Below, piece after piece: positions 6,054 to 8,612 of a DNA stretch of 64,000 nucleotides. The stretch lies in the IMG/VR virus record IMGVR_UViG_2718218133_000001. One strand, given 5' to 3'. Numbering within the stretch: position 1 is the stretch's first letter; each line of letters begins with the position of its first letter. The position numbers and the translations under genes are program-made. The notes under the pieces were generated by a model that saw only the letters and a list, made by a program, of their open reading frames with translations, was not told the DNA's origin and did not search any database. The DNA comes from a virus (taxonomy: Duplodnaviria; Heunggongvirae; Uroviricota; Caudoviricetes).

Positions 6054-6716
6054 ATGCTCGCCTGGAGGCTGAATTTGCAGCTGAGAATGAACATACCACC
6101 CAGGGCGACTAGGACTGTTTTTTGTGTCGGTAGCGGTCCGTCACTCACTCGTGAGGACTGTGCTGCTATAGAAAAAACTGGCTGTTCAATCATCGCGGTT
6201 AACAATTCCTGGCAGATGTTCGATGACATTTATGCCTTATACGCCGGTGATTTGTCATGGTGGAAGCAATACGGATCCACCATACCGGGAGGGAGATTCC
6301 GCAAAGTGACAGCCAACCTGGCGGCGGCGAAATCATTTTCGTTGGAGTACAGGCGATATTGTGGACCGGCGGAAGGGGTAAATAGCGGCGCGCAGGCTAT
6401 CAGTCTGGCTGCTGAATCAGGGGCTGAAGTAGTGGTATTAGTCGGCTATGACTGTTCTCTGCAAAACGGCCTTCATTGGCATGGCGCGCACCCTCAAGCA
6501 CTACGGAATCCAACGCAGGTGTCTATTTCAAAATGGCAACAGCAGTTCCTGGATACCCGCAAAAAACACGCAGATTTACATATTTTGAATGCAAGTAGGA
6601 GCAGTGCAATTCAATGTTTCCCAAGAATAAATTTAGAGGCAGTGATCGCGTTATTATCGTCGGCAGTGGCCCAAGCGCCGCAAACTTTGTTGCGCCGCGC
6701 GGAGTGCCGATTATAG
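6054..6716 (+). CDS. Rossmann-like GSGPS-motif protein (DUF115/MptE-like or sialyltransferase-like), paralog 1
   Basis: Motifs VGSGPS..IIAVNN..SGAQAISLA..VVLVGYD; start and stop phasing uncertain (overlaps next ORF in another frame). Confidence 0.35.
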   Translation: MLAWRLNLQLRMNIPPRATRTVFCVGSGPSLTREDCAAIEKTGCSIIAVNNSWQMFDDIYALYAGDLSWWKQYGSTIPGGRFRKVTANLAAAKSFSLEYRRYCGPAEGVNSGAQAISLAAESGAEVVVLVGYDCSLQNGLHWHGAHPQALRNPTQVSISKWQQQFLDTRKKHADLHILNASRSSAIQCFPRINLEAVIALLSSAVAQAPQTLLRRAECRL

Positions 6717-7240
6717 CGGTCAATGGGGCCATCGACTGGCTTAACCGCGCTTCTTATTTTTTCACCCTTGATCCATCCCCAGACAATATGCGGCGCGTTG
6801 GTCGTGGCCGCCGTCGCCGTGGTGTTTGTTATTGCATGGCACTACCCGATGTTAAAGAACGTGAAGTCAGAGATGGCGTTCTGTGCTTCCGTCGTGTGGC
6901 TGAACGCGGCATGGAGCCAAAAAATACGAATTCTCCCGAGTGGTGGGCGTGGCGCTGGTCCGCACATTTCGGCCTTTGCGAAGATGAGAATGAAATTGCC
7001 AGCGGCAATAGTGCATATGGTGCTCTGAACCTGGCTTTCCATATCGGATTCAAACATGTAGCTCTGGTGGGCGTTGACGCTACGCAAGAACTACGCGTTC
7101 ACTCCGGCGGCACGCCAAAAAATCTAAGTCACCTGCCTTTGTTATTCCAGTCTGCGCGTGAACAGATTGACGTTGTTTCATGCGGGAAAATGGGAGGTAT
7201 TCCGCAGATGACTCTTAAAGAATGGCTGAAGAATACATGA
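6614..7240 (+). CDS. Rossmann-like GSGPS-motif protein, paralog 2
   Basis: Motifs [30 protein letters not shown] parallel paralog 1. Confidence 0.35.
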
Positions 7241-7914
7241 TGGCACCCACAATTTATCACCGTATCGACGGTACCAAATACAGGAATGTCTGGGTTGTTG
7301 GTGATCTGCATGGTTGCTACACCAGACTGATGTCCGAACTCCATCGTGTGGATTTTGACCCGGCGCAGGATTTACTGATATCGGTCGGCGACCTTATCGA
7401 TCGCGGTACTGAAAATGTCGAATGTCTGGAACTATTGCAGATGCCCTGGTTCAGGGCAGTGATGGGGAACCATGAGCGGTTGATGCTCGATGCGTTAAGT
7501 CCTGATGGCAACGTGAATAACTGGCTAATGAATGGCGGACAATGGTTCTTCATGCTGGACACTGATCAGGAAATATTAGCCAGGGCGCTGGTGGAGCTGG
7601 TAAAGCGTCTGCCCTATATCATTGAGTTGAACACCGGGCAAGAAACTATCGTTATAGCCCATGCCGACTATCCGGATAATGAATACCAATTCGGTAAGGA
7701 GGTGCCGCTTTTCAACGTTGTCTGGGCGCGCGAGCGTATCAGTGATTCGATGGATGATATTGGTGGCGAAATTTCTGGCGCAGATCGTTTTATCTTTGGT
7801 CACACTCCGGTGAAAAGCCCGAAGACATTCTGGAATCAGCAGTATATCGACACTGGTGCCGTATTTTGCGGAAACCTGACATTGATGAAAGTGAAAGGTG
7901 ATGGTGCAGCATGA
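7222..7914 (+). CDS. ppp: serine/threonine protein phosphatase (lambda-PPase/PrpA family)
   Basis: 230 aa; metallophosphatase motifs GDLHG, GDLIDRG, GNHE, GHTP; P1 encodes Ppp in this operon. Confidence 0.8.
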
Positions 7915-8612
7915 AGATTGCTTTAGTTTTTCGCTCTGGTGGTGACTATAACGCTTCCGATGTGCAGTGGCTGGTTAATCAACTGCCAAAAGGCTATGAA
8001 ATTATTTGCCTGACAGACCTGAAGCGTTTACATGTACCTGGCGTCAAAGTTGTCCCATTGATCAACCAGTGGCAAAAGTGCCGTGGCTGGTGGGCGAAAA
8101 TCGAGTTGTTCCGACCGGATATAACCGATGATCTGTTCTATCTGGATTTGGACACGGTTATTGCCGGTGATATACGCCCAATCCTAGAGCATCCACCAAC
8201 CAGCTTCACCATGCTTAGGGATTTTTACCATCCACAATATCGTGGCAGCGGTGCCCTGTGGATACCAAATAGTGTTAAAGCGCATATCTGGAGTTCATTC
8301 TGGCAAGATCCGGAAGGTTGGATTTCTCGTTGTGTCACTACTGAGTGCTGGGGTGACCAGGGGTTCTTACGAAAGGTTATGGGCGATGATACACCAGCAT
8401 TTCAGGATCTGTATCCAGGATGGTTTGTAAGTTACAAGGCCGATGTTGTGGAACCTGGTTCAAAATATGCGAGCGCGCGTTACTCCAGGGGGAATGGGGC
8501 ATTACCAAAAGACTGCCGAATAATCTTTTTCCACGGCAAACCGCGACCTCGCGAAGTGTCAGAGGATTGGCTTCCCCTTATCAGCTCATTTTTTGAGCGA
8601 GAATCAGAATAA
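7911..8612 (+). CDS. putative glycosyltransferase-like protein (DxD-type motif YLDLDTVI)
   Basis: 233 aa; hydrophobic-DxD motif typical of GT-A nucleotide-sugar transferases; weak call. Confidence 0.3.

What the first reader, a model, noticed from the sequence alone, without database searches (positions are those of the whole stretch)
6054..8612. Paralogous GSGPS-motif Rossmann proteins, a Ser/Thr phosphatase and a DxD glycosyltransferase-like gene in one C1-controlled block
Two adjacent ORFs share the motif series (V/I)GSGPS .. IIAVN .. SG/NS-A..L(A/N)LA .. (L/A)VG(Y/V)D. I associate that pattern with DUF115/MptE-like or GT42 sialyltransferase-like folds. They are followed by the lambda-phosphatase-like gene ppp and a 233-aa protein with a YLDLDTVI DxD-type motif. 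This combination hints at a sugar or nucleotide transfer activity, for example cell-surface or DNA modification. The two paralogs overlap in different frames, so their starts and stops need checking.
Basis: inference. Interest (0 to 1): 0.4.

Follow-up and report, generated by a model that had tools for sequence, protein, structure and literature searches.

The report
P1 pmgO-pmgP-pmgQ sugar-transferase cassette
This stretch is the already annotated, non-essential pmgO-pmgP-ppp-pmgQ block of a phage P1/P7-type genome; its three predicted sugar-transferase genes form a portable cassette that in many other phages sits right next to the capsid gene, which suggests, but does not prove, that it attaches sugars to the virus particle.

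Summary
The window is a P1/P7-type phage (99.3% identical to P1). The ORFs are pmgO (6054-6716), pmgP (6614-7240), ppp (7222-7914) and pmgQ (7911-8612).

PmgO and PmgP are true but distant paralogs (profile-profile E 1.7e-13). Both belong to the DUF115/MptE-like superfamily. The best fold match for PmgO is the flagellin glycosyltransferase Maf. E. coli WaaZ, the third-Kdo transferase, hits the same Pfam model equally weakly. Ppp is a lambda-type Ser/Thr phosphatase (E 6e-95 to 1G5B). PmgQ is a GT8-like GT-A enzyme with invariant DxD, GDQ and H-G-x-P-x-P motifs.

The 103-nt pmgO/pmgP overlap is conserved in four divergent phages and is not a frameshift artefact.

New here:
- O-P-Q is a portable module, and ppp is an insertion in part of the P1-like lineage.
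- Natural O+P, Q+O and Q/P fusion proteins exist.
- In 32 of 46 dereplicated phage contigs the PmgO-like gene lies directly behind the major capsid gene, often with methyltransferases and other glycosyltransferases.
- All named hosts of cultured phages are Gram-negative.

Best reading (about 0.4): cytoplasmic glycosylation of virion proteins. Main rival: LPS-core remodelling. All four genes are dispensable for plaque formation. No chemistry has been shown.

The parts
4957..4975 (+). Late promoter LPpmgL, as annotated in P1. It could drive late transcription through pmgL to pmgQ.
   Evidence: Annotation of NC_005856/AF234172 at record 78495-78513, with window = record - 73538. Not tested here.
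4990..5006 (-). C1 operator O26 (former Op82).
   Evidence: Matches the C1 consensus ATTGCTCTAATAAATTT with 2 mismatches. Annotated in P1.
5865..5893 (+). Sigma-70-like promoter PpmgN.
   Evidence: Consensus scan gives 9 of 12 matches. It coincides with the predicted promoter PpmgN annotated in P1.
5897..5913 (-). Annotated C1 operator Oppp (former Op83).
   Evidence: P1 annotation. I read the sequence CATGCACTAATTAATTT; it matches the consensus at 13 of 17 positions and is not found at <=3 mismatches.
5957..6112 (+). pmgN, a 51-aa ORF with a GTG start that overlaps the start of pmgO.
   Evidence: phrog_2350, E 1e-37. GGGAG lies 7 nt upstream.
6054..6716 (+). pmgO, 220 aa, a DUF115/Maf/WaaZ-like Rossmann-type putative glycosyltransferase. 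An alternative start is at 6087. Residues 1-14 are disordered and residues about 204-220 are not conserved.
6614..7240 (+). pmgP, 208 aa, a distant paralog of pmgO. Its ATG lies inside the conserved Cys-Phe codons of pmgO, in the -1 frame.
7222..7914 (+). ppp, a lambda-type Ser/Thr metallophosphatase. The likely true start is the ATG at 7237, which forms an ATGA overlap with the pmgP stop. It is an insertion in part of the P1-like lineage and not part of the conserved O-P-Q module.
   Evidence: PF00149 at 59.4 bits. 1G5B at E 5.8e-95, with the alignment starting at residue 11. Absent between P and Q in L004, L056 and L003.
7911..8612 (+). pmgQ (hdmD in P7), 233 aa, a GT8-like GT-A glycosyltransferase with D79-x-D81, G148-D149-Q150 and H208-G-x-P-x-P. 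Its start forms an ATGA overlap with the ppp stop.
8614..8630 (+). C1 operator OpmgRa. It marks the end of the block and the start of the pmgR-pmgS unit.
   Evidence: Consensus match with 3 mismatches. P1 annotation.
8663..8679 (-). C1 operator OpmgRb.
   Evidence: Consensus match with 3 mismatches. P1 annotation.

Best explanation
pmgO, pmgP and pmgQ encode three soluble cytoplasmic enzymes that act together as a glycosylation cassette.

PmgO and PmgP are DUF115-type transferases. Their relatives of known activity (Maf, CstII, WaaZ) all use CMP-activated ulosonic acids. In E. coli K-12 the only such donor is CMP-Kdo. PmgQ is a retaining GT8-type, Mn2+/DxD-dependent hexosyltransferase that would use a UDP-sugar.

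The genes are transcribed during lytic growth, from the C1-repressed PpmgN and probably from the late promoter LPpmgL. They are translationally coupled through the O/P overlap and the ATGA junctions.

The most likely acceptor is a virion protein, with the major capsid protein the prime candidate in relatives. This would give a non-essential glycan coat, as in mycobacteriophages Che8 and Corndog. Ppp is a passenger phosphatase inserted into the cassette in part of the P1-like lineage.

Shown here: the folds, motifs, paralogy, module conservation, fusions and synteny. Inferred: the donor sugars, the acceptor, and that any glycan is made at all.
For: Folds and motifs:
- PmgO and PmgP hit only PF01973. 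The PmgO model matches Maf and many phage DUF115 proteins.
- PmgQ matches GT8 by profile (6mw5 E 2.1e-6, 5gvv E 0.0038) and by fold (glycogenin, GlyE, LgtC, WbbM; E about 1e-8 to 1e-7, probability 1.0). Its catalytic motifs are invariant.
- No transmembrane segments.

Functional linkage:
- O-P-Q is contiguous without ppp in Citrobacter phage phiNP and in a 96.7-kb contig of P1-like size.
- Natural fusions exist: O+P (P0051); Q+O (P0214, P0232, P0236, P0262, P0354); Q+P and P+Q (P0263, P0298); and Q-Q-DUF115 (P0269).
- An O- or P-like gene lies beside Q in about 18 of 28 distant viral loci and about 25 of 56 genome loci, across several phyla.

Virion link:
- An HK97-type capsid gene ends within 1.5 kb upstream of the PmgO-like gene in 32 of 46 dereplicated phage loci, or 32 of the 39 with enough upstream DNA.
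- Flanking genes are capsid (27+5), head completion (16), connector (14), prohead proteases (23), SAM methyltransferases (>=10) and GT2 (4). The Q-seeded sets show the same picture.
- Pseudomonas phage D3 has this layout.

Precedent: Corndog has an O-methyltransferase plus glycosyltransferases inside its head gene block (PMC4351075). Virion glycosylation was later shown (Freeman 2023, as cited in PMC12363180 and PMC12619734).

Dispensability fits a decoration: pmgO, pmgP, ppp and pmgQ are non-essential by CRISPRi and by deletion.
Against: - No glycan has been reported on P1 virions. Two P1 papers I searched, a virion proteome and a cryo-EM structure, do not mention glycans.
- In P1 the cassette is not next to capsid gene 23. 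It lies in an operon with a C1-controlled early-type promoter.
- The capsid proteins upstream of O-like genes show no C-terminal extension like the glycosylated tails of mycobacteriophage capsids. The Pfam capsid domain runs to within about 7 residues of the C-terminus.
- Synteny after the capsid gene could reflect a favoured insertion slot for accessory genes.
- The O-Q link is not obligatory. 65 of 80 O-seeded loci lack Q, and Q occurs alone elsewhere, for example in the int-tail fibre 'b region' of coliphage Chlobot.
- DUF115 also includes a pyrophosphokinase (MptE), so transferase chemistry is not proven.
- PmgO and PmgP score below the Pfam gathering threshold.
- Kdo on a protein has no precedent that I know of.
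Confidence: 0.4

Rival explanations
1. LPS-core remodelling. PmgO and PmgP act like WaaZ, adding an extra Kdo-type sugar to the inner core. PmgQ acts like the GT8 core enzymes WaaO, WaaJ and WaaR. Together they would change the LPS core, which is the P1 receptor. This would reduce superinfection, or loss of progeny on infected cells and debris.
For: - E. coli WaaZ hits PF01973 at about the same sub-threshold level as PmgO and PmgP (29.6 bits, profile positions 4-166).
- The O+P fusion P0051 has a faint precomputed PF27901 WaaZ_KDO_III hit.
- waaZ lies two genes from the GT8 genes waaJ and waaO in the K-12 waa operon.
- WaaZ-dependent third-Kdo glycoforms lose the terminal GlcIII-HepIV disaccharide (PMC6358824).
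- All named bacterial hosts of cultured phages carrying O- or Q-like genes are Gram-negative, and the genome hits are mostly diderm.
- Q-only genes sit at a position typical of lysogenic conversion in a lambdoid coliphage.
Against: - Direct comparison with WaaZ is weak (hhalign E 0.002, probability 14-15%). Comparison with WaaO is also weak (E 0.0075, probability 5%).
- In P1 the block is annotated as C1-repressed, so it would be silent in lysogens.
- In most phages the O-like gene sits in the late head operon, which is too late to replace LPS already exported. This last step is inference.
- PmgQ's best matches are protein-acting GT8 enzymes (Skp1 GalT, glycogenin, GlyE) rather than LgtC.
Confidence: 0.22
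2. Glycosylation of phage DNA, giving a hypermodification that protects against restriction or CRISPR.
For: Phage GT-A and GT-B enzymes do glycosylate 5hmC DNA, and one such GT-A group resembles WaaJ and WaaO (bioRxiv 10.1101/2023.12.21.572611).
Against: - No thymidylate-synthase-like, TET/5mYOX or other base-hydroxymethylating genes appear among the listed neighbour families (top 25 of each set) in three sets of loci.
- The neighbours are head genes, not replication genes.
- The 24 viable single-gene knockouts showed no change in antirestriction (PMC9024508); the pmgO, pmgP, ppp and pmgQ deletions are scored non-essential from that study.
- No PADLOC hits.
Confidence: 0.05
3. The DUF115 proteins are not glycosyltransferases. 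They could be nucleotide-dependent kinases or pyrophosphokinases, as MptE is, or they could modify a host protein or small molecule, with Ppp as a functional partner.
For: - The Pfam model is named after a pterin pyrophosphokinase.
- The matches of PmgO and PmgP to it cover mainly the nucleotide-binding C-terminal motif (profile positions 135-170).
- ppp is translationally coupled to pmgP and pmgQ (sequence).
Against: - The best fold match is the glycosyltransferase Maf, not a kinase.
- Partners in fusions and neighbourhoods are glycosyltransferases and methyltransferases.
- ppp is missing from most versions of the module.
Confidence: 0.1
4. pmgO and pmgP are really one gene, either split by a frameshift error or joined by programmed -1 ribosomal frameshifting.
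For: - pmgP is in the -1 frame relative to pmgO.
- An X_XXY_YYZ heptamer A_AAT_TTA lies at 6629-6635 in the pmgO frame.
- One natural in-frame O+P fusion exists (P0051).
Against: - The two-ORF arrangement, with the pmgP ATG embedded in pmgO's conserved Cys-Phe codons, is kept in four divergent phages with overlaps of 40-103 nt.
- The heptamer is not conserved.
- Both proteins are complete family members on their own.
- A shift at the heptamer would remove pmgO's conserved LE..L C-terminal helix.
Confidence: 0.03

Closest known systems
Maf (motility-associated factor) flagellin glycosyltransferases, DUF115; structure 5mu5
   Same: Best fold match to the PmgO model (probability 1.0, TMq 0.54). 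Same Pfam superfamily, PF01973. Both are soluble cytoplasmic enzymes, and Maf acts on a structural protein before assembly.
   Different: Maf is about 630 aa with extra domains, whereas PmgO and PmgP are about 200 aa and contain only the core. Sequence identity is 12%. Maf's donors (CMP-Pse, CMP-Leg) are not made by E. coli K-12 (background knowledge). The acceptor here is unknown.
WaaZ (E. coli third-Kdo transferase, CAZy GT73; Pfam PF27901 WaaZ_KDO_III)
   Same: It also hits PF01973 below threshold. There is a faint precomputed PF27901 hit on the O+P fusion. It uses CMP-Kdo, the one CMP-sugar present in all the Gram-negative hosts. It sits close to GT8 genes in the waa operon.
   Different: Direct profile comparison is inconclusive (E 0.002, probability about 15%). 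WaaZ acts on LPS. The phage genes sit mostly in head gene blocks.
GT42 sialyltransferases (Campylobacter CstII). This is the source of the database name 'alpha-2,3-sialyltransferase' given to PmgO and to D3 orf7.
   Same: Shared GxGPS, (N/T)SG and G-x-D motifs in the same order.
   Different: The matches are not significant (E 0.2-0.7). The host has no CMP-sialic acid (background knowledge). The sialyltransferase name is therefore over-specific.
GT8 retaining glycosyltransferases (glycogenin, Skp1 alpha-GalT 6mw5, GlyE, LgtC, WaaJ/WaaO)
   Same: PmgQ shares the GT-A fold, the DxD motif, the GDQG motif and the C-terminal H..G..(K/R)P motif.
   Different: PmgQ does not reach Pfam PF01501 at all. 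It is shorter, at 233 aa. It forms its own large family of 5,515 representatives.
Mycobacteriophage virion glycosylation cassettes (Che8 gp108-110, Corndog gp35-38)
   Same: Glycosyltransferases plus O-methyltransferases are embedded in the head gene block. They are non-structural enzymes (PMC4351075; PMC12363180).
   Different: Different hosts (Actinobacteria versus Gram-negative). I did not test whether the enzymes are homologous. No DUF115 member is reported there. P1 itself keeps the cassette away from its capsid gene. No glycan has been shown for P1 or D3.
Bacteriophage lambda Ser/Thr phosphatase (NinI, PDB 1G5B)
   Same: Ppp aligns end to end at E 5.8e-95 and has all the metal-binding motifs.
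   Different: None of note. Its biological role is unknown in both phages.

Membership tests
DUF115 / MptE-like (Pfam PF01973) | Score at or above the Pfam gathering threshold (34.6 bits) | tested here: not met
   PmgO scores 23.4 bits and PmgP 20.9 bits. The O+P fusion P0051 reaches 44.6 bits and the DUF115 domain of P0269 reaches 72.5 bits.
DUF115 / MptE-like (Pfam PF01973) | Consistent, exclusive similarity across the whole family | tested here: met
   PF01973 is the only family hit in 28/34 PmgO relatives (best E 3e-8) and 26/36 PmgP relatives (best E 9e-7).
DUF115 / MptE-like (Pfam PF01973) | Rossmann-like alpha/beta core resembling solved DUF115 proteins | tested here: met
   PmgO model, pLDDT 85.6 and pTM 0.82. 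Best PDB match is Maf 5mu5. BFVD matches include proteins named MptE-like or DUF115. PmgP was not modelled.
GT42 sialyltransferase (CstII) | Significant sequence similarity | tested here: not met
   PmgO profile against PDB gives CstII chains at E 0.21-0.66. The PmgP profile gives no PDB hit.
GT42 sialyltransferase (CstII) | Catalytic His and phosphate-binding Tyr residues in equivalent positions | not tested
   No structural superposition could be run. PmgO has invariant H141 and H143 after the G-Y-D motif, but equivalence was not established.
GT73 WaaZ Kdo transferase (PF27901) | Significant similarity to WaaZ or to its Pfam model | tested here: inconclusive
   hhalign A1 or A2 against K-12 WaaZ gives E about 0.002, probability 14-15%. 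There is a faint precomputed PF27901 hit on P0051. The local Pfam copy lacks PF27901.
GT8 glycosyltransferase | Pfam PF01501 match | tested here: not met
   PmgQ has no Pfam hit even at E <= 1. WaaJ, used as a control, scores 215 bits.
GT8 glycosyltransferase | Profile and fold similarity to solved GT8 enzymes | tested here: met
   Profile: 6mw5 at E 2.1e-6 and 5gvv at E 0.0038. Fold: the top 50 hits are almost all GT8 enzymes, E 7e-9 to 6e-7, TMq 0.5-0.6.
GT8 glycosyltransferase | DxD metal/nucleotide motif, GDQ motif and C-terminal His motif | tested here: met
   D79, L80, D81, G148, D149, H208, G209, P211 and P213 are invariant, and Q150 is >=90% conserved, in 30 homologs. These are aligned to the matching 6mw5 segments.
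PPP-family lambda phosphatase | Metallophos domain above threshold, GDxHG/GDxxDRG/GNHE motifs, and similarity to 1G5B | tested here: met
   PF00149 at 59.4 bits against a cut-off of 21.5. Motifs at residues 27, 56 and 82. 1G5B at E 5.8e-95.
Phage virion glycosylation cassette (Che8/Corndog type) | Glycosyltransferase genes embedded in the virion structural gene block | tested here: inconclusive
   Met for relatives: 32 of 46 loci have the O-like gene directly after the capsid gene, and D3 does too. Not met for P1 itself, where the block lies between baseplate/tail genes and pmgR-pmgS.
Phage virion glycosylation cassette (Che8/Corndog type) | Glycans covalently attached to capsid or tail proteins and dependent on the cassette | not testable with these tools
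   This needs mass spectrometry of virions. The P1 papers I searched do not mention glycans.

The most novel reading that the evidence does not exclude
A widespread and so far undescribed virion-glycosylation system exists in tailed phages of Gram-negative bacteria. A small DUF115 (Maf/WaaZ-like) transferase is encoded directly behind the major capsid gene. It is often joined by a GT8-like enzyme and by methyltransferases. Together they would decorate the capsid with a glycan, possibly methylated, built from host CMP-Kdo-type and UDP-hexose donors. P1 PmgO/PmgP/PmgQ and D3 orf7 would be its first members in genetically tractable model phages.
Probability: 0.3. Interest if true: 0.7.

Novelty: new variant of a known kind. 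Interest (0 to 1): 0.5.

Why it matters
P1 is one of the most used phages in genetics, yet these four genes have no assigned role beyond 'putative morphogenetic'.

If the cassette glycosylates virions, protein glycosylation of phage particles would extend from mycobacteriophages to phages of E. coli, Pseudomonas, Caulobacter and many environmental Gram-negative bacteria. That bears on antibody recognition and clearance in phage therapy, on particle stability, and on the interpretation of unexplained masses in virion proteomics. It would also give the first acceptor and donor for a large DUF115 subfamily, and for a GT8-like family with more than 5,000 sequence clusters.

If the cassette instead remodels the LPS core, it would be a new receptor-masking mechanism used during lytic growth.

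Either outcome can be tested with existing P1 deletion mutants. At the least, the database name 'alpha-2,3-sialyltransferase' should be treated as unsupported.

Tried and rejected
- **Programmed -1 frameshift joining pmgO and pmgP.** A heptamer AAATTTA at 6629 fits the pattern, but it is absent from the three other O-P pairs, and a shift there would delete a conserved helix. Rejected.
- **Defence or anti-defence role.** No PADLOC hit for any of the five proteins tested.
- **NCBIfam.** Nothing for PmgO, PmgP or PmgQ.
- **Single-sequence PDB searches.** For PmgO and PmgQ they gave only noise or marginal hits. Profiles were needed.
- **PmgP profile against PDB.** No hit.
- **Literature.** Searches for pmgO/pmgP/pmgQ, for DUF115 with phage, and for P1 with glycosyltransferase found no functional study. 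Freeman 2023 could not be opened.
- **Capsid C-terminal extension** in capsid genes upstream of the module. None seen.
- **D3 orf12** (275 aa, next to a methyltransferase) as a hidden PmgQ-like enzyme. No similarity to the PmgQ profile or to PDB.
- **Intrinsic terminators inside the block.** Only weak consensus matches within coding sequence. Not considered real.
- **Direct homology to WaaZ and WaaO.** Weak and inconclusive.

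Full report
**What the window is.** The region 5500-9500 is 99.3% identical to phage P1 (NC_005856, AF234172) and to other P1/P7-type phage-plasmids. With window = P1 coordinate - 73538, the finding covers four genes:
- pmgO, 6054-6716
- pmgP, 6614-7240
- ppp, 7222-7914
- pmgQ, 7911-8612

The small pmgN (5957-6112) precedes them. The DNA of pmgN, pmgO and pmgP is identical to P1. ppp differs at 2 positions and pmgQ at about 8. The PmgQ protein is 100% identical to P7 HdmD. RefSeq already names PmgO 'alpha-2,3-sialyltransferase', Ppp 'metallophosphoesterase' and PmgQ 'glycosyltransferase'. 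These names are the same as the PHROG family labels.

**Checking the observation.** Pairwise BLASTP shows only the N-terminal motif (E 0.003). I therefore built family alignments of 34 PmgO relatives and 36 PmgP relatives and compared the profiles. This gave 163 aligned columns, E 1.7e-13, probability 98%. The two genes are genuine but old paralogs. Ppp has the three PPP-family motifs and matches lambda phosphatase 1G5B at E 5.8e-95. The alignment starts at Ppp residue 11. The real start is therefore probably the ATG at 7237, which forms an ATGA overlap with the pmgP stop. PmgQ's DLD (79-81) is invariant in 30 homologs.

**Folds.**
- PF01973 (MptE-like/DUF115) is the only Pfam family hit by PmgO (23.4 bits) and PmgP (20.9 bits). 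Both scores are below the 34.6-bit cut-off. It is also the only family hit by 28/34 and 26/36 of their relatives.
- The AlphaFold model of PmgO (pLDDT 85.6) is a Rossmann-like alpha/beta domain. Its best PDB match is the DUF115 flagellin glycosyltransferase Maf (5mu5, probability 1.0, TMq 0.54). All other matches are generic Rossmann proteins with low TM-scores.
- Among predicted viral structures, the PmgO model matches many uncultured phage proteins, some named MptE-like or DUF115.
- CstII (GT42) appears only at E about 0.2, on the shared motifs.
- PmgQ has no Pfam hit. Its family profile finds the GT8 structures 6mw5 (E 2.1e-6) and 5gvv (E 0.0038).
- The PmgQ model (pLDDT 94.6) matches glycogenin, Skp1 alpha-GalT, GlyE, LgtC, WbbM and LARGE1 at E about 1e-8 to 1e-7.
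- The DxD, GDQ and H-G-x-P-x-P motifs of PmgQ are invariant or nearly so.
- None of the proteins has a membrane-spanning segment.

**The overlap.** pmgP starts 103 nt before the pmgO stop, in the -1 frame. The same arrangement occurs in three further divergent O-P pairs, with overlaps of 40, 70 and 94 nt. In every case the pmgP ATG lies inside pmgO's conserved Cys-Phe codons. A slippery-type heptamer at 6629 is not conserved. These are therefore two coupled genes, not a frameshifted one. One natural in-frame O+P fusion protein exists (P0051). The pmgO start (6054 or 6087) remains uncertain, because residues 1-14 are disordered and not conserved.

**A portable module, with ppp as a passenger.**
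- In Citrobacter rodentium phage phiNP the three genes lie back to back, without ppp, between the lysis genes and terminase.
- A 96.7-kb contig of P1-like size also has O-P-Q without ppp.
- In Serratia, P and Q overlap directly.
- The PmgQ family is large. It has 5,515 cluster representatives at E <= 1e-3.
- The family includes natural fusions: Q+O (5 cases), Q+P, P+Q, Q-Q-DUF115 and methyltransferase+Q.
- An O- or P-like gene lies beside Q in about 18 of 28 distant viral loci and about 25 of 56 bacterial genome loci, in phyla as far apart as Zixibacteria, Planctomycetes and Saccharibacteria.
- The link is not obligatory. 65 of 80 loci seeded with an O-like query lack Q, and Q occurs alone too.

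**Where the module sits.** This is the main new result.
- Around Q-like genes in 18 distant viral loci, the recurrent neighbours are FkbM methyltransferases (10), capsid proteins (12), head completion (8), tail completion (8) and connector proteins.
- In all five loci checked individually, the gene directly upstream is the major capsid protein.
- The same picture holds in bacterial genomes.
- Around O-like genes in about 38 dereplicated contigs, the flanking genes are capsid (27+5), head completion (16), connector (14), prohead proteases (23), SAM methyltransferases (>=10) and GT2 (4).
- With my own capsid HMM, an HK97-type capsid gene ends within 1.5 kb upstream of the O-like gene in 32 of 46 loci, or 32 of the 39 with enough upstream DNA.
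- Pseudomonas phage D3 is a cultured example. Its order is portal, protease, capsid, a PmgO-like ORF (annotated as orf6.5 plus orf7), then adaptor. A methyltransferase lies a few genes further on.
- All 79 cultured-phage records with an O-like gene have Gram-negative hosts, apart from one group of records labelled as algal virus.

**Mechanism.** The DUF115 relatives of known activity are Maf, CstII and WaaZ. All transfer CMP-activated ulosonic acids; this is established knowledge of those families.
- I found that E. coli WaaZ, the third-Kdo transferase (PMC6358824), itself hits PF01973 at 29.6 bits.
- The O+P fusion has a faint precomputed WaaZ_KDO_III hit.
- Direct comparison with WaaZ is inconclusive.
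- No sugar-nucleotide synthesis genes appear among the recurrent neighbours listed.
- The hosts are Gram-negative.

From these last two points I infer that host CMP-Kdo is the most plausible donor for PmgO and PmgP, and a UDP-hexose for PmgQ.

The position behind the capsid gene, the methyltransferase partners and the Corndog precedent point the same way. Corndog has an O-methyltransferase plus glycosyltransferases inside its head gene block (PMC4351075), and virion glycosylation was shown later (cited). This makes virion-protein glycosylation the best-supported acceptor (confidence about 0.4).

The main rival is LPS-core remodelling (about 0.22). It is favoured by the WaaZ and GT8 resemblance and by LPS core being the P1 receptor (background knowledge). 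It is disfavoured by lytic or late expression. DNA glycosylation is unlikely: there are no base-hydroxymethylating neighbours, and the 24 viable P1 single-gene knockouts showed no antirestriction change.

**What is known experimentally.** pmgO, pmgP, ppp and pmgQ are non-essential by CRISPRi and by deletion (PMC10695390; PMC9024508). I found no paper on their function, and none reporting glycans on P1 virions.

**Verdict.** The added value is the evidence for a conserved, fused and capsid-linked DUF115/GT8 module. That evidence turns 'function unknown' into two concrete, testable hypotheses. The chemistry and the acceptor remain unproven.

Noticed in passing
window 5957-6112 (pmgN): A CRISPRi knock-down of pmgN scored as essential (EOP 1.4e-2), while its deletion is reported non-essential. 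All downstream genes in the block are non-essential, so simple polarity does not explain the result (table in PMC10695390).
   Followed up: no
window 7911-8612: The PmgQ protein is 100% identical to P7 HdmD and 97.9% identical to P1 PmgQ, while pmgN, pmgO and pmgP are identical to P1 at the DNA level. The window therefore looks like a P1/P7-type mosaic.
   Followed up: partly
database names of homologs: The annotation is noisy. PmgQ homologs in Salmonella are named 'phosphohydrolase'. The typo 'norphogenetic protein' has spread widely. 'alpha-2,3-sialyltransferase' is applied to PmgO, some PmgP homologs and D3 orf7 without significant similarity to sialyltransferases.
   Followed up: partly
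L223 5346-6197 (E. coli K-12 waaZ): WaaZ, the third-Kdo transferase, hits Pfam PF01973 MptE-like over nearly the whole model at 29.6 bits, just under the cut-off. This places GT73 in the DUF115 superfamily alongside Maf and GT42.
   Followed up: partly
L224 (Pseudomonas phage D3) 3379-4097 and 5436-6831: D3 orf6.5 and orf7 are annotated separately, but they read as one 198-aa PmgO-like ORF directly after the capsid gene. orf12 (275 aa, no detectable relatives in PDB) and orf13 (methyltransferase) are inserted between the head-closure and gp10-like genes.
   Followed up: partly
L003 (Serratia plymuthica chromosome) 4513-5819 and 10001-17785: A P-Q pair sits next to lysozyme and holin genes. Two further PmgO-like genes flank two Big_1 proteins and a lipoxygenase. 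This is an unusual, possibly non-phage, setting for the family.
   Followed up: no
L140 (Escherichia phage Chlobot) 5001-5720: A PmgQ-like gene stands alone between integrase and the tail-fibre genes of a lambdoid phage. That position is typical of lysogenic-conversion genes, which suggests the Q-only subfamily may have a different target.
   Followed up: no
window 10249-10755 (pap) and 5312-5890 (pmgM): Pap matches the HAD phosphatase domain of polynucleotide kinase-phosphatase (PF25109, E 2e-12). PmgM is a sub-threshold VRR-NUC nuclease. With Ppp, this stretch therefore carries two unrelated phosphatases of unknown role.
   Followed up: no
window, whole: Thirteen matches to the C1 operator consensus at <=3 mismatches, against 0.33 expected by chance. 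The annotated Oppp operator in front of this block (13 of 17 positions) is not among them.
   Followed up: partly
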